NCBI GenBank assembly: GCA_018302225.1
Contig: JAGVZY010000012.1
Location: 11,191 to 75,190, forward strand
Direction of reading: 5' to 3'
DNA: 64,000 nt
Source: Candidatus Woesearchaeota archaeon
GTDB taxonomy: Archaea; Nanobdellota; Nanobdellia; SCGC-AAA011-G17; JAGVZY01
Under the pieces are notes generated by a model. That model ran no database searches. It was not told the DNA's origin and saw nothing but the letters and a program-made list of their open reading frames with translations. Positions 6,793 through 53,647 of this stretch are shown piece by piece. Position 1 is the stretch's first letter. The number at the start of each line of letters is the position of its first letter. The translations under genes and the position numbers were made by a program.

Positions 6793-6793
6793 A

Positions 6794-6867
6794 TGGGCCT
6801 AAGAGGATTTGAACCCCTATATCTTGGTCCGAAGCCAAGTATGCTATCCAGGTTACATCATAGGCCC
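6794..6867 (-). tRNA. tRNA-Arg (anticodon UCG)
   Basis: Hand-folded cloverleaf: acceptor stem GGGCCUA/UAGGCCC; D stem AUGU/GCAU with a GG loop; anticodon stem CUUGG/CCAAG with loop CUUCGGA; T stem AGGGG/CCUCU with loop UUCAAAU; discriminator A. No encoded CCA. Confidence 0.8.
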
Positions 6868-6941
6868 AAATTGTTTTAAAATGCTGAGATTTCTTAAATC
6901 TTACCATAATCTTTATAAAAAAGCGATATTTTGAGAATGAT

Positions 6942-31709: not shown

Positions 31710-31777
31710 ATACTTTGTTCTTATATATAAACCTGTTACGAAATCTTTATTAAACTCAGAATCAATGTAAGAATGCG

Positions 31778-34024
31778 ATGGAGGGAATAAACAGAAGTCT
31801 CTTAGGTGGAATAGGTAGATTTGTGAGGGGGCTTAATAGACCTCAGAAGTTAAATTCTCAGAGTGTAACTTTAGAAGATATTCTTTATGGTAGTCCTTAT
31901 TTAACAAAAGAACAAATTTTAAGAAAAGGTGTTGTTAAGAAGTTTAATAAGGCTTGTTTTAATCTTTATGTTCATGGAATTGAGGATCCTATAGTTCATA
32001 ATTATTCTGATAAAAAAGATCCAGCTATAAAGAAACTTCCACAGTCTGCAATATATGATATTCAGAATGGTTTTTATATAGATATTAATACTTGGCAAGT
32101 TTATTATGATTTAGAAAGCGTTCCCAAACATCTTTATTCCTTTAAAGATCAATTAGATTTTGCAGAAGGAATATTTGATCATGAGATTATGCATTATATT
32201 GTTTATCCTAGATCAAGGGCTGATGAAATTATTTATTTAGCAACTATAAGTGAAGAATTAAGTAAGGTTAAACAAATTGAAAATAATTTTGAATTAATTA
32301 AAGGTTATACTCATTTTGTAAGTAATATTTTTGGTGATTTTTTGGGTGATAGTTATTTATTTTCCGGAAAATATGGTGCTATTAATACAAGACCTTTGGC
32401 ATCTATGAGGTATAGGAGTACTGTTAGAGAAATTTTAACTGGAACTAAAGAGATTAGTCCTTTTTTAAAAGTTATATTAAATTCTTATGAACAAATTTGG
32501 AATACTAATTTTGGGTTGGAAGAGGTTAAATTAAGAATAAAAGAAAAAGAAACTATAGCAAAAATTACAAACCTTTTAGATGAGAACACTTGGATGAATA
32601 AATCTTCTTGGGAAGAAAAACTTAAAGATTTTACAAACATAATTAAAGATTATATCTTTCAAGTTATACCTCTGCAACAAGCAATGCAAATTATTAATTC
32701 TATGACTGATCAATCTGATGAGGGTTCTGAAGATAATGAAAATCTTTCTGGAAGTGGTAGTTCTAAACCAGGTAAAGGTAAATCTAAGAGGGAAAGGAAT
32801 AGTATAGAAAATTTGCTTAGAAGTTTGAGTGATAATTCTGATAAAGATTCAAGTTCTAGTCAAAGTTCTAAGAGTTCTAATGGAAAGAATTCGGGTGGTC
32901 AAAAAGAGAATTCAAATGGCGGGGCTGAAAAGGGTAGTGGTTCTGAAAGTGATCAAGGAGAAGGACAGAATTCAGGCGAAGGAGACTATTCAGGAAGAGA
33001 TTATGATAGTAGAACAGAATTATCTAAAGAAGTAACTAAGTTATGGGGAAATCCTTTTCAGAGTAAATTGGATTTTGGAAAAAAGAGAAAAAACCAAGGT
33101 TTAGAAAAAGCGTTAGGTTCAGCTTATGAAAGGTTCAAAAATAATCCAAAAAAATTTGCAGGTGCAATGAGTTCTTTGACTTCATTGGATTTAGATGATT
33201 GTTTAAGATATCTGTATAGAGCAAGAGCACAAGAATATCTTATAGAATTTAAATCTGAAGTTAAAAGAAAATCAAACAAAAAAACTATTCTTACAAGAAC
33301 AAACTGGAATCCTTCTGATACTATAGGTGGAAAAAGGGGATTAAAAATAATTGATTCTTTAATTGCGCATGGACAAATAATTCCTTATATAAATACTAAG
33401 AAAAATAAGCTGCGTAATTTACCTGGTCCAAAAAAGAATAATTCTATTGCAGATTTGTTATTGGTTATTGATAGTTCGGGAAGTATGGGATTTGATCCAT
33501 ATAATGAAGAGCCAGATAATAGGGGGGATTATGACTCTGCTGTTTTGGCTGGTGAAGCTCAAGCTTTATATGCTTTAGATTGTGGCGCAATGGTTTCTGT
33601 TATAAACTTTTCAGGTGGAGACGATTTGGCTTTCTGTAGTTATACTTATAAACTTGATAATATTGAAAGAGTATTACTAAATAAGCAAGATGGGGGTACT
33701 ATGTTCCCCTGTAAAGAAATTGCTAAGATGATGACACTCACAAAAAATAAACTTTTTGTGTCAATATTAAGTGATTGCGAATTATACAATACTGCTGAAG
33801 CCATCGAGAGTATGATGGATGAATTAACTGAATTTGATAAATTTTCAGTGTTTCAAACTTCAAGATGGGGAGGGTTAACTTCTTTTGCTAGAGAATTAAA
33901 ATCTCATGGCGCCAATTTATTTGTGGTGCGTACGCATAAAGATCTGAAAAATATTGTTGTTGGTGAAACAATGAGAGAATATGATTTAGAATTTGATGGA
34001 GAGGAAGATGAGCAAATTATCTAA
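31778..34024 (+). CDS. zincin-like (HExxH) domain - disordered S/G/D/K-rich linker - C-terminal VWA (MIDAS) protein
   Basis: FDHEIMHY (HExxH) sits in the N-terminal 300 aa. A low-complexity linker of about 120 aa follows. Near residue 550 there is LLVIDSSGSMG (DxSxS MIDAS), followed by a VWA fold. Confidence 0.7.
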   Translation: MEGINRSLLGGIGRFVRGLNRPQKLNSQSVTLEDILYGSPYLTKEQILRKGVVKKFNKACFNLYVHGIEDPIVHNYSDKKDPAIKKLPQSAIYDIQNGFYIDINTWQVYYDLESVPKHLYSFKDQLDFAEGIFDHEIMHYIVYPRSRADEIIYLATISEELSKVKQIENNFELIKGYTHFVSNIFGDFLGDSYLFSGKYGAINTRPLASMRYRSTVREILTGTKEISPFLKVILNSYEQIWNTNFGLEEVKLRIKEKETIAKITNLLDENTWMNKSSWEEKLKDFTNIIKDYIFQVIPLQQAMQIINSMTDQSDEGSEDNENLSGSGSSKPGKGKSKRERNSIENLLRSLSDNSDKDSSSSQSSKSSNGKNSGGQKENSNGGAEKGSGSESDQGEGQNSGEGDYSGRDYDSRTELSKEVTKLWGNPFQSKLDFGKKRKNQGLEKALGSAYERFKNNPKKFAGAMSSLTSLDLDDCLRYLYRARAQEYLIEFKSEVKRKSNKKTILTRTNWNPSDTIGGKRGLKIIDSLIAHGQIIPYINTKKNKLRNLPGPKKNNSIADLLLVIDSSGSMGFDPYNEEPDNRGDYDSAVLAGEAQALYALDCGAMVSVINFSGGDDLAFCSYTYKLDNIERVLLNKQDGGTMFPCKEIAKMMTLTKNKLFVSILSDCELYNTAEAIESMMDELTEFDKFSVFQTSRWGGLTSFARELKSHGANLFVVRTHKDLKNIVVGETMREYDLEFDGEEDEQII

Positions 34025-35513
34025 GGCAGATGTTGAAGAAAATAAAAATGCGCGGGAAAAGGTGAGAGGGGTATATAAAGAAGTAATTACGAGTGGAATT
34101 TATGTAAACACAAGATATTCTATTCCTCTTGAGTACAGAGATGTTTTTGGTGAAGAAAAAAAGGAGTTTCTAGATCCAATGGTTTCTTCTGCAATTATTA
34201 ATTGTTTAGTTCCGAAAAGTGGTTTGCTTTTTAGGGGTGGACATGGTGGTGGTAAAACGAGTTTAATAATGAAAGTTTCTTCTGCTATGACTGGAATTTC
34301 TGAAGCAGAGCTTAGAAAAAGTATGATTCGGGGAAATGATGATGAAACATATAATACTTTAGTTGCATCTTTGAATCTTGGAAGGTTACTGGGTCCAGAA
34401 CATGCAGAAGAAGTAAGATGGAGACCTTTTATAACTTCAAAAGTAAAGATTATTGATGAAGTTAATAGATTTTTGCCAGCTACATTAAACGGGCTTTTTG
34501 AGCCTTTAAATGAGGGTAGTGCTGGTTTTGCAGTTACAGGTGAAACTATGGCTTTAGATGATTATGTTTTTTATGCTACTGAGAATCCAAATGATGAAGG
34601 AACGTATAAACTTCCAAAACCTTTTTTAGATAGATTTAGTATGCGCGTAAACGCACCACAAGTTCCAGGTGTTAATGATTTGTTTGTTCTTTCACAGAGA
34701 AAAGATGATAAATTAAATAAGTTAGCTCTTAAAAGTATTTTTAAATTTGATGAATTAGTAAATTTAAGAAGAAAAATAATTGAAGATATTTCTTTCACAA
34801 CTGATTCTTTATTATATACTATTTATGCAACTGAAGGTATGTCTTTGTGTGTGAGGGCTGATCAGCTTGATAAAAATCAAAGCACAATTGATGTTGGCCC
34901 CAGATGTAAAGGTTGCGAATATTCAGGACAGTATTGTGAAATGACTCAACAAGGAATTTCAGGAAGAGCATTTTTAGATGTTTTAAGATGGAGTAAAGCA
35001 TACTCTTGGTTCTTAAATTCTTTTGAGAGATCTGAAAAACCAGAAGTTCAATTAAGTATAATTCAATCAATTTTACCTTACTTAATTGCGCATAGAATTA
35101 CACCCAACGATCATCAACTTAAAAAAGATCCTTATTGGGGAATGGAAGGTAAATTTACTCAAACTTTAATTGAAAAATTAAATGAAGGTTATAACACTAC
35201 TAAAAGTTTATTAGTTGATATGAATGAAGTTTTATCTGGAGCATTGCCTTTTAATAAATCTAAGATTAATACACCTACTAAAGATTTAGTTATTGAGTAT
35301 GGTTATAAACCTTTACTTAAGGAAGCAAGTGAATCTGATAGTTTTAAAACTTTTTACAAAAGGTTGATTGGAGCAAAATTGGATTTAAATGATTTGAGTA
35401 TAATGGAGAAAAATATTTTTGAAAGTTTAGATATTAAACCCCAAGCAAGAATGTATTTAGTGCAACTTATGAATATACACAAATTAAATTACGGTGGAAA
35501 AAATGGCTCTTAA
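33993..35513 (+). CDS. MoxR-type AAA+ ATPase with ~250-aa C-terminal extension containing a Cys cluster
   Basis: Walker A is GGHGGGKTS, Walker B is KIIDEVNR, and ATENPNDEGTYKLPKPFLDRF is the MoxR sensor/arginine finger region. CKGCEYSGQYCE lies in the extension. It overlaps the VWA gene by 32 nt. Confidence 0.75.
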   Translation: MMERKMSKLSKADVEENKNAREKVRGVYKEVITSGIYVNTRYSIPLEYRDVFGEEKKEFLDPMVSSAIINCLVPKSGLLFRGGHGGGKTSLIMKVSSAMTGISEAELRKSMIRGNDDETYNTLVASLNLGRLLGPEHAEEVRWRPFITSKVKIIDEVNRFLPATLNGLFEPLNEGSAGFAVTGETMALDDYVFYATENPNDEGTYKLPKPFLDRFSMRVNAPQVPGVNDLFVLSQRKDDKLNKLALKSIFKFDELVNLRRKIIEDISFTTDSLLYTIYATEGMSLCVRADQLDKNQSTIDVGPRCKGCEYSGQYCEMTQQGISGRAFLDVLRWSKAYSWFLNSFERSEKPEVQLSIIQSILPYLIAHRITPNDHQLKKDPYWGMEGKFTQTLIEKLNEGYNTTKSLLVDMNEVLSGALPFNKSKINTPTKDLVIEYGYKPLLKEASESDSFKTFYKRLIGAKLDLNDLSIMEKNIFESLDIKPQARMYLVQLMNIHKLNYGGKNGS

Positions 35514-36675
35514 TATAGATTTAGATAATTTTGTTCCGGGTTCTGGAAAATATGGTGATATATTAAGCCAATCTATGGGTGGAATGTTTAGAGAATTTGG
35601 AAAATCTGAAAAACCTAAATCTAAAATTAGTAAAAAACAAAAAGATGAAGCGACAAAAACAGTTATACCTAAAGTTGTTGGTTCTGTTTTTGAAGAAGGT
35701 GCTTCTTCAGATAATAAACCTGAAAAAGTTATAATTGAAATTCCTAAAGGAGAAGTTTCTGAGCAAATATTAAACTCTATGGATTTTAATGAGAAAATGG
35801 AGGGTATTATACAATCAGCTTATTCTAATTATTTAAAACATGAAAATTCTGATCAAGAAAAAAGAGATTATCTTTGGGATAAAGAGTATGATAAAGTTAT
35901 AAATACTATTTATACACAAAAAGAAATTTTAGTTAAGCCCGTTGTATTGTATAGAGGATTACATTATGAACCTGAGTTTATACAAGAAATTTGGGGTTGG
36001 CCTGTTAGAAAAGAAGCAGTTGCAGAATTTATAAAACAAAAAACTGGAGATGATACTATTTTAAAAACTAGTTTTTATAACAATCTGCCTGATGAGATGA
36101 ATTTTAAGGAGTTGGTAGATAAATTGGGACAAATGGGAGAGGTTGTAGAGGATTTTGTTAATACGGTTTTTATGAATCCTTCTCAAGGCAGATATTCTTT
36201 ATCTCCCCATTTTTTAGCTATGTCTTTAAGTCCTGAAGAAAGGAATAATTTTGCTGCAATGGTAGAATGGGATTATAATAATGGAAGATTTGGAAAAAAA
36301 TCTTTAAAAGAATATTTTAATTTTGAAAAATATAGAAGATTATCAAATAGATTCGAAGTTTTTAAGCAAAGTTTGTTAAATTCTTTACCTTCTGTAAATG
36401 CGATTAATCAAGTTATCAAAGAACGCAATTTACATAATGGTGGTTATGAAAAAATTATAAAACTATTTAATGATTTAGCAAATGATTATGTTAATCCTTG
36501 GAGAGCTGTAATTGAAAGGAAAAATGAAGATTTTTTTAAGCAGGTTGAGTTAGAAGATGAAATTGAAAGAAGAAAAGATTGGAGTCTCAGAAAAGTAATA
36601 AAGGCTGAAGAAATTGGAGATTATTTAGATAGTTTGAAAAAATCAGGAAAATATTTTGTAATTGGAAATTCTTAG
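35494..36675 (+). CDS. 393-aa ORFan, candidate partner/effector of the MoxR-VWA pair
   Basis: It overlaps the ATPase gene by 20 nt. No recognisable motifs. Confidence 0.4.
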   Translation: MEKMALNIDLDNFVPGSGKYGDILSQSMGGMFREFGKSEKPKSKISKKQKDEATKTVIPKVVGSVFEEGASSDNKPEKVIIEIPKGEVSEQILNSMDFNEKMEGIIQSAYSNYLKHENSDQEKRDYLWDKEYDKVINTIYTQKEILVKPVVLYRGLHYEPEFIQEIWGWPVRKEAVAEFIKQKTGDDTILKTSFYNNLPDEMNFKELVDKLGQMGEVVEDFVNTVFMNPSQGRYSLSPHFLAMSLSPEERNNFAAMVEWDYNNGRFGKKSLKEYFNFEKYRRLSNRFEVFKQSLLNSLPSVNAINQVIKERNLHNGGYEKIIKLFNDLANDYVNPWRAVIERKNEDFFKQVELEDEIERRKDWSLRKVIKAEEIGDYLDSLKKSGKYFVIGNS

Positions 36676-36704
36676 TGAAATTAAATATGAAAAAGAAAAA
36701 AGCA

Positions 36705-36731
36705 GCTAATGTGCCAAAAAAGCACATTAGC
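36705..36731. terminator. perfect 10-bp hairpin (GCUAAUGUGC-CAAAAAA-GCACAUUAGC) between convergent genes
   Basis: Read directly from the sequence. It lies 30 nt after the stop of 35494..36675 and 65 nt after the ftsZ stop. It is followed by an A-rich run on the + strand and a T-rich run on the - strand. Confidence 0.4.
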
Positions 36732-36796: not shown

Positions 36797-37870
36797 TTAA
36801 ACCATGTCTATGCCTAACTCATGACTCATTCTGTTTCTTTGTCCAGCTGATTTTTTGTAGTCAGACTTTCCAAGGATATATGGTGAGTTAACACCTGCTA
36901 TAATAGTCATAATCCTTAGTCTTCCTTTCATATCGTCGCTGATTCTTGCTCCCCAGATAACATTTGCATCTTGGTCAAGAGCTTCAGTAACAATTTGTCC
37001 AACCCTATTTACTTCATCAAGAGTTAAGTCTGGTCCACCTGCAACATGGATTAATGCTCCAGTTGCTCCTTTGTAACTGACATCAAGTAGAGGATTGCTT
37101 AATGCTCTTCTTGTTGCTTCTTCTACCCTATGTTCTGATCCTGATTCTCCGATACCTATTGCGCAAACACCGGAATCTGTCATGATAGCTTTAACATCTG
37201 CGTAGTCTAAGTTAACAAGACTTGGAATAGCAATTGTCTCTACAATTCCTTTAATCATTGTTGAAAGTAATTCATTTGCAACAGCAAAAGCTTGTTGAAC
37301 TGGAAGATTTCCAGCGATTGAAGCTAATCTGTTGTTATCAATTACTATAACAGAATCACTGACTTCTCTAAGTTCTTGAAGACCGTATTCAGCTTTGTCT
37401 ATTCTGGCTCTTTCAATATCAAAAGGCATAGTTACTGTACCTATAACAATAGCACCCATGTCTTTAGCTATTTTTGCTACAACAGGTGCTGAACCAGTTC
37501 CAGTTCCTCCACCCATACCAGCACAAACAAAAACCATATCTGAATCTTTAAGAGACTCTTTAAGTTCTTGAAGGCTTTCTTTAGCAGCTTCTTGTCCTCT
37601 TTGTGGGAAACCTCCACATCCAAGACCTCTAGTCAAATCCTTTCCTATAAGGATTTTTTTGTCTGCTTCATGTATATCTAAGTGTTGTCTATCAGTATTT
37701 ACAGCTATGATTTCTGCACCTCTGATACCTTTCTGATATAGCCAGGTTACTATATTACCGCCGGCACCACCAGTACCAATTACTTTTATATTTGCTTGTC
37801 CTATTAGTGCATCATCTGCACCATTGTGCTTTTCAGCTTGCTTTATTGCATCTTGTACAAGGAACTCCAT
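36797..37870 (-). CDS. ftsZ: cell division GTPase FtsZ
   Basis: Has the tubulin signature GGGTGTG ([16 protein letters not shown]), 357 aa. Confidence 0.95.
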
Positions 37871-52822: not shown

Positions 52823-53647
52823 ATGGATAGGTTTGATAAGGTTTTGAAGGATATAAAAAACATAAAAATTCAAGGTGCTGAGAATGTGGCTAAAGAAGGC
52901 ATAAAATTACTTCTTTTAAAAAACGATTCTACATCAGTTAAACAAATTATTAATGTAAGACCTACTGAGCCTGCGTTGAAAAATGCAATTAGATTTGTGC
53001 TTGGTTTTAAAGATAAAAAAGCAGGTGTTAAATTAGCATTAAAACATTTTGAAAGTACAAATTCTGAAATTGTTAAACAAGGCTCAAAATTAATAAAAAA
53101 TAATTCTGTGGTTTTTACACATTGTCATAGTTCTACAGTTATTAAAATTTTAAAGCAAGCCAAAAAGCAAGGCAAAAAGTTTGAAGTTTATAGTTCTGAA
53201 ACAAGACCTTTATTTCAGGGAAGAAAAACGGTTTTAGAATTGATGAAAGCCGAGATTAAAGTTACTTCTTTTGTGGATTCTGCGTTTTTGTCAGTTGTAA
53301 AATCAGTTAAAAATAAAAATATTATTATGCTTGTGGGAACTGATGCTGTTTTGAAAAATGGGGCTATAATAAATAAAATTGGAACTGGAATGTTTGCTGA
53401 AATTTGTTATGATAATAAAATTCCTGTCTATGCGGCTTTAGATTCTTGGAAATATGCAGGACATATAAAAATTGAAGAAAGAAACTATAAGGAAATTTGG
53501 AGAAAAGCTCCTAAACGAATAAAAATAAGAGATCCTGCATTTGAAAAAGTAGATGTTAAATTTGTTAAAGGTATAATTTCTGAGTTTGGAATATTAAAAC
53601 CAAAACAATTTGTTAAAAAAGCAAAAAAAGAATTGAAGGGATTTTAA
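52823..53647 (+). CDS. e2b2: ribose-1,5-bisphosphate isomerase (eIF-2B alpha/beta/delta-like, e2b2)
   Basis: Has an eIF-2B-like fold (GAENVAKEGIKLL...GTDAVLKNGAIINKIGT). Its position next to RuBisCO also supports the call. Confidence 0.7.
   Translation: MDRFDKVLKDIKNIKIQGAENVAKEGIKLLLLKNDSTSVKQIINVRPTEPALKNAIRFVLGFKDKKAGVKLALKHFESTNSEIVKQGSKLIKNNSVVFTHCHSSTVIKILKQAKKQGKKFEVYSSETRPLFQGRKTVLELMKAEIKVTSFVDSAFLSVVKSVKNKNIIMLVGTDAVLKNGAIINKIGTGMFAEICYDNKIPVYAALDSWKYAGHIKIEERNYKEIWRKAPKRIKIRDPAFEKVDVKFVKGIISEFGILKPKQFVKKAKKELKGF

What the first reader, a model, noticed from the sequence alone, without database searches (positions are those of the whole stretch)
31778..36675. Translationally coupled triad: zincin-VWA protein, MoxR-type AAA+ ATPase with Cys-cluster extension, and an ORFan
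Three same-strand genes overlap by 32 nt and 20 nt, which implies an operon with coupled translation. Gene 1 (748 aa) combines an HExxH zincin-like N-domain (FDHEIMHY), a disordered S/G/D/K-rich linker of about 120 aa, and a C-terminal VWA domain with an intact MIDAS (LLVIDSSGSMG). Gene 2 (506 aa) is a clear MoxR-family AAA+ (Walker A/B, ATENPNDEGTYKLPKPFLDRF) with an unusual extension of about 250 aa carrying CKGCEYSGQYCE. Gene 3 (393 aa) has no family I can recognise. MoxR-VWA pairs are established as chaperone-like or remodelling modules. In comparative-genomics work, ternary versions with a variable third partner have been proposed as NTP-dependent conflict or signalling systems. The metallopeptidase-plus-VWA fusion resembles the bacterial DUF2201_N/DUF2201 arrangement. 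Nothing equivalent is characterised in a small-genome archaeon. The locus sits among housekeeping genes (ligase, nitroreductase, ftsZ), which looks like an inserted module. Gene 3 could be the effector or substrate.
Basis: partly seen in the sequence, partly recalled or inferred. Interest (0 to 1): 0.75.

Follow-up and report, generated by a model that had tools for sequence, protein, structure and literature searches.

The report
Archaeal MoxR ATPase, peptidase-VWA partner, client
A tiny-genome archaeon carries a conserved, uncharacterised three-gene machine: an ATP-driven remodelling enzyme, a partner protein that pairs a protease-like motif with a metal-dependent adhesion domain, and a fast-evolving protein of unknown fold that is probably its dedicated client.

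Summary
Three co-directional, overlapping genes lie at 31778-36675. Gene 1 has HExxH, a ~100-aa disordered linker and a C-terminal VWA domain with a complete MIDAS. Gene 2 is a MoxR-class AAA+ ATPase. Gene 3 matches no library.

Genes 1 and 3 are not orphans; the word-indexed search missed their relatives. The ATPase lies within four genes of a gene-1 homolog in 62 of 65 assessable loci (DPANN and Asgard/sediment archaea). HExxH and DxSxS are present in 69/69 full-length homologs. Gene-3 relatives sit beside the ATPase in 13 of 16 DPANN-type loci.

Corrections:
- The cysteines form an invariant Cys4 insert in the AAA+ lid; the true C-terminal extension is ~135 aa.
- Gene 1 fails the Pfam DUF2201 models (hhalign E~0.01 only).
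- The locus lacks the defining third components of the published ternary MoxR-vWA conflict systems.
- GC and codon usage match the flanks, so composition gives no sign of insertion.

New finding: in DPANN relatives, 1 to 15 or more neighbouring genes from at least five unrelated families share an N-terminal leader (M-P-I-D-D-x-L-x-K-L-E), 45/76 in-operon versus 2/118 outside. The window's own leader is degenerate.

Best reading: a NorQD/CbbQO-like remodelling or processing machine acting on cluster-encoded clients. It is a new variant of a known kind, and its function is untested.

The parts
31722..31732 (+). TATA-box-like element (TTATATATAAA) about 50 nt upstream of gene 1; candidate archaeal promoter of the operon
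   Evidence: Read directly from the sequence. Inference only; no archaeal promoter tool was available.
31778..34024 (+). Gene 1 (748 aa): zincin-like HExxH N-domain, disordered linker, helical pre-VWA region and C-terminal VWA/MIDAS domain. It is the partner or adaptor of the ATPase.
31898..32713 (+). Gene 1 N-domain (about residues 41-312): a small beta-sheet followed by a helical bundle. Invariant H135-E136-x-x-H139 (nt 32180-32194), P144, N183, D187 and D191.
   Evidence: pLDDT 80-95. Invariant columns. HExxH present in 69/69 homologs. No Pfam or PDB sequence match.
32714..33013 (+). Gene 1 disordered S/G/D/K/N-rich linker (residues 313-412). Its length varies between homologs.
   Evidence: pLDDT below 50. 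The region is gapped and variable in the alignment.
33284..33445 (+). Conserved but low-confidence pre-VWA segment (about residues 503-556; W510, L522, P536, T540, K542 at >=90%). Candidate ATPase-contacting 'finger'.
   Evidence: Conservation across 69 sequences. Low pLDDT at 499-555. Analogy to the NorD finger (PMC13036017). This assignment is an inference.
33446..33991 (+). Gene 1 VWA domain (about residues 557-738) with a complete MIDAS: D565-S-S567-G-S569 (nt 33470-33484), T641 and D666.
34008..35513 (+). Gene 2 (501 aa from ATG 34008; alternative TTG at 33993): MoxR-class AAA+ ATPase. Walker A is GGHGGGKT (residues 77-84), Walker B is IDEVNRF (149-155), followed by ATENPND and the sensor-2 GISGRA.
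   Evidence: Pfam AAA_5 and AAA_3 above cutoff. 43 homologs. Alignment A1. The only PDB sequence hit is the MoxR structure 2R44, E 4e-16.
34848..34937 (+). Cys4 insert in the ATPase lid (C281, C300, C303, C310; C-x18-C-x2-C-x6-C), just before sensor 2. Putative zinc-binding knuckle.
   Evidence: Invariant in 18/18 aligned homologs. The pattern is present in 14/14 unique DPANN-type ATPases; an equivalent C-x17-C-x2-C-x8-C motif was seen in all five sediment/Asgard-type examples inspected. About 20 residues longer than the equivalent region of 2R44. Metal binding is inferred.
35100..35510 (+). Family-specific C-terminal extension of the ATPase (about residues 365-501).
   Evidence: Conserved along the full length of homologs. 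No Pfam match.
35503..36675 (+). Gene 3 (390 aa from ATG 35503; alternative GTG at 35494). Residues 1-90 form a disordered, charged N-terminal region that starts with a degenerate acidic leader (MALNIDLDNF). Residues 91-385 form a folded alpha/beta body of unknown fold. Proposed client or substrate.
36704..36730 (.). Perfect 10-bp inverted repeat (GCTAATGTGC-N7-GCACATTAGC) between the convergent gene 3 and ftsZ. Likely a shared terminator hairpin marking the 3' end of the operon.
   Evidence: Read directly from the sequence. The terminator role is an inference.

Best explanation
The three genes encode one ATP-driven protein-remodelling or processing machine of the MoxR-VWA type.

Gene 2 is the motor, presumably a hexameric ring.

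Gene 1 is its dedicated partner, built like NorD, CbbO or CobT: an N-domain, a flexible linker and a C-terminal VWA. By analogy, the VWA docks on the ATPase, possibly through the conserved pre-VWA segment acting as a finger. Its MIDAS metal captures an acidic residue of a target. Unlike the known partners, its N-domain carries an invariant HExxH, so it probably also cuts the captured protein.

Gene 3 is the cluster-encoded client. In DPANN relatives the clients multiply into arrays of unrelated proteins that all start with the same short acidic leader (M-P-I-D-D-x-L-x-K-L-E). I read this leader as the recognition tag, either the MIDAS ligand or an ATPase-docking peptide, possibly removed by the zincin domain.

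Shown: domain identities, motif invariance, gene linkage and operon-specific enrichment of the leader.

Inferred: physical complex formation, which component receives the leader, proteolysis, and the physiological role.
For: - Gene 2 is MoxR-class: Pfam AAA_5/AAA_3, invariant Walker A/B and sensor motifs, and 2R44 as the only PDB sequence relative.
- The AF2 architecture of N-domain, 100-aa disordered linker and VWA matches the description of NorD (PMC13036017). The best viral structural matches are CobT-like and VWA phage proteins.
- Linkage: the ATPase lies within 4 genes of g1 in 62/65 loci. g3-family genes are adjacent to the ATPase in 13/16 loci. The triad recurs at 59%, 47% and 41% ATPase identity.
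- Divergence gradient between the window and L001: ATPase 59%, g1 43%, g3 31%. The motor is the most constrained and the client the least.
- Leader: 45/76 in-operon genes against 2/118 outside, Fisher p 4e-21. There are 41 unique leader proteins in at least 5 body clusters that are unrelated by hhalign. An independent locus, L109, shows the same pattern.
- DPANN-type g1 proteins also start with a leader-like motif, while Asgard-type g1 proteins (whose loci have no leader genes) do not.
Against: - No experiment or complex prediction links the parts physically.
- The N-domain fold is unplaced. HExxH alone does not prove a peptidase, and no third zinc ligand is identified.
- The window's own g3 leader (MALNIDLDNF) and those of its closest relatives are degenerate, so the leader argument rests mainly on other lineages.
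- L003/L005 and L011 have the ATPase and leader genes but no g1 within 8 kb. g1 may therefore not be the leader receptor.
- The Asgard/sediment-type pairs have no adjacent client at all.
- g3 has no conserved metal- or cofactor-binding residues that would suggest what is being matured.
Confidence: 0.5

Rival explanations
1. It is a conflict or host-interaction system. The leader-tagged, rapidly diversifying paralogs would be effectors or sensors used against viruses or on the host of these episymbiotic archaea. They would be held inactive until the MoxR-VWA-protease module releases or activates them, in the spirit of the NTP-dependent ternary systems.
For: - Partner genes diverge fast, and copy number ranges from 1 to 15 or more between relatives.
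- Several unrelated body families share one leader.
- The g3 family is extremely sparse, with 4 hits among 1.84 billion representatives.
- A protease-like domain is fused to the VWA.
- Kaur et al. propose MoxR-vWA pairs as first-level regulators of such systems (PMC7159879).
- The triad also occurs on a bacterial-looking, high-GC contig, which suggests mobility.
Against: - No PADLOC hit for any of the three proteins.
- No recognisable effector, toxin, nuclease or signalling domain in any partner.
- No VMAP, iSTAND, FtsH or beta-propeller component.
- Neighbours are housekeeping genes, not defence islands.
- Composition is native.
- No relatives on viral contigs.
- The ATPase-g1 core is conserved as a plain pair in Asgard-type sediment archaea.
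Confidence: 0.2
2. It is an assembly chaperone for a cellular structure. The leader-bearing proteins would be subunits of a larger assembly (cytoskeletal, division-related, surface or attachment apparatus), and the MoxR-VWA pair would load or assemble them. This would parallel GvpN in gas-vesicle formation or Rea1/midasin in ribosome assembly.
For: - Many similar-sized paralogs (about 240-300 aa) lie in one operon with a single ATPase.
- A shared terminal peptide is typical of subunits that dock onto a common partner.
- FtsZ is the immediate convergent neighbour in both the window and a 42%-identical relative.
- The chromosomal context is native and stable.
Against: - FtsZ adjacency is absent from all other stored loci.
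- The window and several relatives have only one partner gene.
- The invariant HExxH has no explanation in a pure assembly role.
Confidence: 0.15
3. It is a metal-cofactor insertion chaperone in the strict sense of NorQD, CobST or BchID. Gene 3 would be the metalloenzyme being matured.
For: - The partner architecture is the same as NorD and CobT.
- NCBIfam gives a weak BchD-ChlD hit for the ATPase (E 0.002).
- The ATPase carries a Cys4 site.
Against: - The g3 family has only one invariant residue (R247) and no conserved His, Cys, Asp or Glu cluster that could hold a metal.
- Partner bodies belong to several unrelated families, which does not fit a single enzyme target.
- DPANN genomes lack the respiratory and tetrapyrrole pathways served by the known systems (general knowledge, not tested here).
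Confidence: 0.07

Closest known systems
NorQ-NorD (also CbbQ-CbbO): MoxR AAA+ ATPase with a VWA partner
   Different: - There is no sequence-level membership: no Pfam or PDB sequence hits to NorD, CbbO or CbbQ.
- The partner's N-domain has an invariant HExxH.
- The ATPase is about 500 aa, with a Cys4 lid insert and a 135-aa C-terminal extension, against about 270 aa for NorQ/CbbQ.
- The targets are cluster-encoded proteins of unknown fold, not a respiratory enzyme or Rubisco.
- The hosts are DPANN and Asgard archaea.
DUF2201_N + DUF2201 proteins (PF13203/PF09967), for example gp25-like proteins of N4-like phages next to an AAA_5 ATPase
   Same: One polypeptide holds HExxH, then an N-x3-D-x3-[ND] helix motif, a low-complexity linker and a VWA-like domain with DxSxS...GGT...D, with an AAA_5 ATPase nearby. 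hhalign gives a collinear alignment of these motif blocks.
   Different: - No g1-family member reaches either Pfam model.
- hhalign gives only E 0.009-0.014, with probability 3-5%.
- DUF2201_N has a near-invariant His five residues after HExxH, where g1 has an invariant Pro.
- g1 is almost twice as long, with an extra helical region before the VWA.
- The DUF2201 proteins sampled here are phage-borne and g1 is chromosomal; the ATPase-family scan found no relatives on viral contigs.
Ternary MoxR-vWA conflict systems of Kaur, Burroughs, Iyer and Aravind 2020 (VMAP, iSTAND, FtsH and beta-propeller types)
   Same: A MoxR-vWA core is combined with a variable, fast-evolving third component. The general logic is that the vWA captures a peptide and MoxR remodels the complex (PMC7159879).
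   Different: - The third component is not VMAP, iSTAND, FtsH or a beta-propeller.
- The vWA is C-terminal and carries no effector domains.
- There are no EADs, caspase, TIR or trypsin domains.
- Those systems are found in multicellular bacteria; this one is in DPANN and Asgard archaea, in housekeeping contexts.
- No PADLOC hits.
CobS-CobT and BchI-BchD chelatase motors, including phage CobT-like VWA proteins
   Different: - TM-scores of about 0.2 show that only the VWA superposes.
- There are no Pfam CobT or Mg-chelatase hits above threshold.
- There is no tetrapyrrole pathway context.
Rea1/midasin with Rsa4 and Ytm1
   Same: An AAA_5-type motor is joined through an acidic flexible linker to a MIDAS domain that recognises an acidic residue in a small N-terminal element shared by several different client proteins. 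This is a conceptual parallel to a shared leader on unrelated clients (background cited in PMC13036017).
   Different: Midasin is a single giant eukaryotic polypeptide with six fused AAA modules. Its clients use a UBL domain rather than a 10-residue leader, and it has no peptidase motif. The resemblance is functional analogy only.

Membership tests
MoxR-class AAA+ ATPase (gene 2) | Pfam AAA_5/AAA_3 match above the gathering threshold | tested here: met
   AAA_5 36.3 bits (cutoff 22) and AAA_3 33.5 bits (cutoff 27). Homologs carry the same precomputed Pfam hits.
MoxR-class AAA+ ATPase (gene 2) | Intact Walker A, Walker B and sensor-2 motifs | tested here: met
   GGHGGGKT, IDExNRF, ATENPxD and G(I)SGRA are invariant in 18 homologs. 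The lid and sensor-2 region aligns to the MoxR structure 2R44.
MoxR-class AAA+ ATPase (gene 2) | Genomic pairing with a VWA-domain protein | tested here: met
   The ATPase lies within 4 genes of g1 in 62/65 loci.
MoxR-class AAA+ ATPase (gene 2) | Hexameric ring with ATPase activity | not testable with these tools
   Requires biochemistry or a multimer prediction.
VWA/MIDAS partner of the NorD/CbbO/CobT kind (gene 1) | VWA fold | tested here: met
VWA/MIDAS partner of the NorD/CbbO/CobT kind (gene 1) | Complete MIDAS (DxSxS, T, D) | tested here: met
   D565, S567, S569, T641 and D666 are invariant. DxSxS is present in 69/69 homologs.
VWA/MIDAS partner of the NorD/CbbO/CobT kind (gene 1) | N-domain, flexible linker, C-terminal VWA architecture | tested here: met
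   AF2 gives confident domains at 41-310 and 410-738, with 313-412 disordered. NorD is described the same way.
VWA/MIDAS partner of the NorD/CbbO/CobT kind (gene 1) | Finger element inserted into the ATPase pore | tested here: inconclusive
   A conserved, low-confidence segment at 503-556 is a candidate. No complex model could be made.
VWA/MIDAS partner of the NorD/CbbO/CobT kind (gene 1) | Sequence membership in the NorD, CbbO or CobT families | tested here: not met
   No Pfam, NCBIfam or PDB sequence hits.
DUF2201_N + DUF2201 (PF13203 / PF09967) | Match to the Pfam models | tested here: not met
   None of the g1-family members scanned gives a hit at E <= 1. The positive control, phage RG-2014 gp36, scores 2e-38 and 3e-21.
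DUF2201_N + DUF2201 (PF13203 / PF09967) | Profile-profile homology to a genuine DUF2201 alignment | tested here: inconclusive
   hhalign gives E 0.009 for the VWA halves and E 0.014 for the N-domains, with probability 3-5%. The alignment is collinear across HExxH and the N..D...[ND] motif.
DUF2201_N + DUF2201 (PF13203 / PF09967) | HExxHxxxxH signature (near-invariant third His) | tested here: not met
   DUF2201 has H98 at >=90%. g1 has an invariant Pro (P144) at that position.
Zincin metallopeptidase (gene 1 N-domain) | HExxH on a helix, conserved across the family | tested here: met
   H135, E136 and H139 are invariant (69/69) and lie in helix 122-141, which follows a 3-strand sheet.
Zincin metallopeptidase (gene 1 N-domain) | Identifiable third zinc ligand and zincin fold | tested here: inconclusive
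Ternary MoxR-vWA conflict systems (Kaur et al. 2020) | Third component is VMAP, iSTAND, FtsH-type AAA+ or a vWA-fused beta-propeller | tested here: not met
   g3 has no Pfam or PADLOC hit and no structural neighbour. Its model is mostly helical with one beta-hairpin, whereas VMAP-C is described with 7 strands.
Ternary MoxR-vWA conflict systems (Kaur et al. 2020) | vWA protein carries variable C-terminal effector domains | tested here: not met
   In g1 the VWA is the C-terminal domain and nothing follows it.
Ternary MoxR-vWA conflict systems (Kaur et al. 2020) | Phyletic association with multicellular bacteria | tested here: not met
   The hosts are Woesearchaeota, Aenigmatarchaeota, Nanoarchaeia and Promethearchaeota.

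The most novel reading that the evidence does not exclude
DPANN archaea may have a previously unrecognised leader-peptide-directed protein handling pathway. In it, a 10-residue N-terminal acidic tag (M-P-I-D-D-x-L-x-K-L-E) marks a diversifying repertoire of otherwise unrelated proteins. The MIDAS of a zincin-VWA adaptor captures them, a Cys4-bearing MoxR motor remodels them, and proteolysis removes the tag. This would be a new kind of ATP-dependent maturation or delivery system, possibly feeding the symbiont-host interface. Its two-gene core would be ancestral and shared with Asgard archaea.
Probability: 0.2. Interest if true: 0.85.

Novelty: new variant of a known kind. Interest (0 to 1): 0.62.

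Why it matters
MoxR-VWA pairs are among the most widespread and least understood AAA+ systems. Only a handful have a known client (NorQD, CbbQO, RavA-ViaA, CoxDE), and in most the client has to be guessed.

In this family the presumed clients are encoded in the operon. In many relatives they are marked by a shared leader, so client recognition could be tested directly with peptides and point mutants.

The family also adds three features I did not find described for MoxR systems: a protease-like domain fused to the VWA partner, a Cys4 insert in the ATPase lid, and arrays of tagged proteins of unknown fold. It occurs in DPANN and Asgard archaea, where almost nothing about protein quality control or symbiont-specific machinery has been characterised. 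In such reduced genomes, keeping about 5 kb (and up to about 17 kb in relatives) for this module argues that it is important.

Tried and rejected
1. Word-indexed homolog searches for genes 1 and 3 returned only the proteins themselves. This would have wrongly confirmed 'ORFan'. Neighbourhood comparison and iterative HMMs recovered both families.
2. Profile searches of the g1 and g3 families against PDB sequences found nothing meaningful.
3. NCBIfam, PADLOC and PHROGs gave no informative hits for genes 1 and 3.
5. I tested whether gene 1 really starts at the leader-like VTLEDIL. V30 is GTA, not a start codon, so the idea was rejected.
6. I tested for a third component in the Asgard/sediment-type loci. 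Neighbours vary (HAD hydrolase upstream, assorted genes downstream) and none carries a leader, so this was rejected.
7. Recent horizontal insertion was rejected on GC, GC3 and codon usage.
8. Viral origin was rejected: the ATPase family has no relatives in IMG/VR contigs.
9. Conserved synteny with FtsZ, ligase, nitroreductase or GatDE was absent from the stored loci. FtsZ adjacency appears in only one other locus.
10. A second leader-like ORF in the window (52823-53647) is an IF-2B family protein, so it was a chance match.
I obtained ids for them through the listing of cluster members.

Full report
OBSERVATION. The window has 24-38% GC, and gene 1 is identical to NCBI 'hypothetical protein J4403_03220', Candidatus Woesearchaeota. 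It carries three + strand ORFs at 31778-34024 (748 aa), 33993-35513 (506 aa) and 35494-36675 (393 aa). The public gene calls start gene 2 at ATG 34008 (501 aa, P0003) and gene 3 at ATG 35503 (390 aa, P0001). Both starts follow Shine-Dalgarno-like tracts (GGAGAGG, GGTGGA), and the overlaps are then 17 and 11 nt. The genes are tightly packed either way. A TATA-like TTATATATAAA lies about 50 nt upstream of gene 1. A perfect 10-bp hairpin lies between gene 3 and the convergent ftsZ. The flanks are housekeeping genes: ThiI/THUMP, a MiaB-like radical SAM enzyme, TrmB, ATP-dependent DNA ligase, nitroreductase, FtsZ and GatD/GatE.

GENE 2. Pfam places gene 2 in AAA_5 and AAA_3, both above threshold. 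The indexed search returned 43 homologs, almost all full length (about 490-540 aa), from Woesearchaeota, Nanoarchaeia and Aenigmarchaeota. In an alignment of 18 of them, Walker A (GGHGGGKT), Walker B (IDExNRF), ATENPxD and the sensor-2 GISGRA are invariant. So are four cysteines: C281, C300, C303 and C310. A family profile hits only one solved structure, the MoxR/MRP-type ATPase 2R44 (E 4e-16). That alignment shows the cysteines lie in an insertion of about 20 residues in the lid, just before sensor 2, and that about 135 residues follow the lid as a family-specific extension. All 14 unique DPANN-type ATPases have the pattern, and an equivalent C-x17-C-x2-C-x8-C motif appears in every sediment/Asgard-type example I inspected.

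GENE 1. The window protein has no Pfam, NCBIfam or PADLOC assignment, and the indexed search found only itself. The neighbours of the ATPase homologs told a different story. Large unannotated proteins next to the ATPase in L001, L002 and L004 are clear homologs, at 26-48% identity in both halves. An alignment of 11-12 members, including two Promethearchaeota (Asgard) proteins, has invariant H135-E136-x-x-H139, P144, N183 and D187, and a complete MIDAS (D565, S567, S569, T641, D666). Five of the 11 members reach Pfam VWA_2.

A metagenome scan with the family found 165 relatives. Among full-length ones, HExxH and DxSxS are present in 69/69, and an ATPase of this family lies within four genes in 62 of 65 assessable loci. 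Most of these are a tight two-gene pair, ATPase (about 575 aa) then g1 (about 570 aa), from marine and subsurface sediments. They resemble the two Asgard genome loci and sit in ordinary metabolic contexts.

IS GENE 1 A DUF2201 PROTEIN? I built a positive control. Gene 36 of phage RG-2014 (PMC5735904) scores 2e-38 on DUF2201_N and 3e-21 on DUF2201, and it lies near an AAA_5 ATPase. Relatives occur in 528 phage records. I aligned eleven diverse ones. That family has HExxH, a WN.A.D..IN motif and a DxSxS...GGT...D MIDAS. These are the same kinds of motif in the same order as g1, whose N183, D187 and D191 have the same i, i+4, i+8 spacing.

The statistics are weak, however. hhalign gives E 0.009 for the VWA halves and E 0.014 for the N-domains, with probabilities of 3-5%. 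No g1 member reaches either Pfam model. DUF2201's near-invariant His five residues after HExxH is an invariant Pro in g1. I therefore treat DUF2201 as the nearest architectural analogue and a possible very distant relative, not as the family of g1.

THE LEADER. In the DPANN-type loci, essentially every gene packed around the ATPase other than g1 begins with the same short peptide, whether or not it belongs to the g3 family. The peptide is nearly identical within a genome: MPIDxxLxxLE in L003/L005, M[TS]IEDSLxK in L007, MPIDDALGNIE in L008, and MGT.D.ALE.LP in L009, L020 and L109. By a fixed pattern it occurs in 45 of 76 in-operon genes against 2 of 118 other genes in the same loci (Fisher p 4e-21). 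L003 and L005 are the same organism, so these counts are somewhat inflated.

The 41 unique leader proteins have the consensus M-P-I-D-D-x-L-x-[KN]-[LI]-E, followed by a K/E-rich stretch. With the leader removed they fall into at least five clusters, and hhalign does not connect these (best E 0.015). Copy number runs from one (window, L001, L004, L010, L012) through 3-6 (L008, L009, L109, L007) to 10 (the P0023 locus) and 15 or more (L005).

DPANN-type g1 proteins start with a similar M-[SGA]-[LF]-x-D-x-[LIF]. The sediment/Asgard-type g1 proteins, whose loci have no leader genes, start with basic tails instead.

There are caveats. The window's own gene 3 (MALNIDLDNF) and its closest relatives carry only a degenerate version. 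L003/L005 and L011 have leader genes and the ATPase but no g1 within 8 kb.

MECHANISM. The recent NorQD structures show the template. A VWA finger sits in the ATPase pore. The partner's N-domain touches the lid. An unresolved linker is stretched by ATP-driven rotation. The MIDAS is proposed to bind acidic residues of the target (PMC13036017). Gene 1 has the same layout. It also has a conserved but low-confidence segment just before the VWA core (503-556; W510, L522, P536, T540, K542) that could be the finger.

I propose that the ATPase and g1 form such a motor-adaptor complex, and that gene 3 (in relatives, the whole array) is the client, recognised through its acidic leader. The invariant HExxH suggests that the adaptor also cleaves the client, perhaps removing the leader.

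The domain identities, motif conservation, gene linkage and leader enrichment are shown. Complex formation, the identity of the leader receptor (MIDAS or ATPase), proteolysis and the biological purpose are inferred.

The main rival is a conflict or host-interaction system with diversifying effectors. Fast divergence, copy-number variation and occurrence on a bacterial-looking 55%-GC contig favour it. Several results argue against it. No partner carries a known effector or defence domain, and there are no PADLOC hits. The neighbours are housekeeping genes. Composition is native. No relatives occur on viral contigs. A structural-assembly role and a classical metal-insertion role are less likely, for the reasons given under the rivals.

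COMPARISON AND NOVELTY. The locus works like a NorQD/CbbQO/CobST-type MoxR-VWA pair, and its ATPase is a MoxR-class member. It is not a member of the NorD, CbbO, CobT or DUF2201 sequence families. It lacks every defining third component of the ternary systems of Kaur et al. (PMC7159879). Literature searches found no description of this system in DPANN archaea.

I classify it as a new variant of a known kind. The features I did not find described elsewhere are the HExxH-VWA adaptor family shared by DPANN and Asgard archaea, the Cys4 lid insert, and the DPANN-specific arrays of leader-tagged proteins of unknown fold.

I set the interest at 0.62. The finding is well supported as a conserved system and offers an unusually testable client-recognition hypothesis, but the function is unknown and the leader evidence is weakest in this particular window.

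Noticed in passing
L005:95-13136 (same organism as L003; Woesearchaeota RIFCSPLOWO2_02_FULL_30_14): An uninterrupted same-strand run of at least 15 genes of about 245-296 aa, all starting MPIDxxLxxLE, surrounds the ATPase. No g1 homolog lies within 8 kb on either side. The array may continue beyond the fetched DNA.
   Followed up: partly
P0023 locus (JGI 3300072015; no DNA available): A 741-aa gene, six genes of 230-274 aa, the ATPase and four genes of 243-280 aa are followed by FtsZ on the opposite strand. The window has the same downstream neighbour, although the ATPases are only about 42% identical. FtsZ adjacency was not seen in any other stored locus.
   Followed up: partly
L002 (ENA NODE_339, 140-kb contig): The full triad (679 aa, ATPase, 303 aa, and an extra 353-aa gene) sits on a 55%-GC contig. 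Its neighbours are Ser/Thr kinase-FGE-sulfatase fusions and a TamB-like protein, which looks bacterial. This may be inter-domain transfer or an unusual host. L014 is labelled Saccharibacteria (GC 49%).
   Followed up: partly
window 36704-36730: A perfect 10-bp inverted repeat (GCTAATGTGC-N7-GCACATTAGC) lies between the convergent gene 3 and ftsZ. It is probably a bidirectional terminator hairpin.
   Followed up: no
L109:2949-6886: Immediately upstream of the module, on the same strand, are an unannotated 527-aa protein, a Prok-JAB-like protein (weak hit) and a ThiF/E1-like protein. This looks like a ubiquitin-like modifier cassette next to the MoxR module.
   Followed up: no
Sediment/Asgard-type loci (e.g. 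L015, L049, L061, L066, L097): In 14 loci an HAD-family hydrolase gene (about 230 aa, FDLDGTLL motif) lies directly upstream of the ATPase-g1 pair on the same strand. The wider synteny is also conserved, so this may reflect close relatedness rather than functional linkage.
   Followed up: partly
L007:9993-12666: After the leader-gene array, three more same-strand genes follow without the leader. One (209 aa) has a weak transglutaminase-core hit. The other two (353 and 334 aa) are unannotated and begin with similar N-terminal sequences.
   Followed up: no
window 36797-37870 (- strand): ftsZ has a clearly higher GC (0.386) and a larger codon-usage distance than every other gene of 300 aa or more in the window (mean GC of the window's ORFs outside the block is 0.28). 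This is consistent with a highly expressed, conserved gene.
   Followed up: no
window 52823-53647 (+ strand): This ORF starts with a leader-like MDRFDKVL but is an IF-2B family protein (Pfam E 4e-46), so the match to the leader pattern is chance.
   Followed up: yes
window 6793-6868 (- strand): This tRNA-Arg(TCG) is the only tRNA gene detected in the 64-kb window.
   Followed up: no
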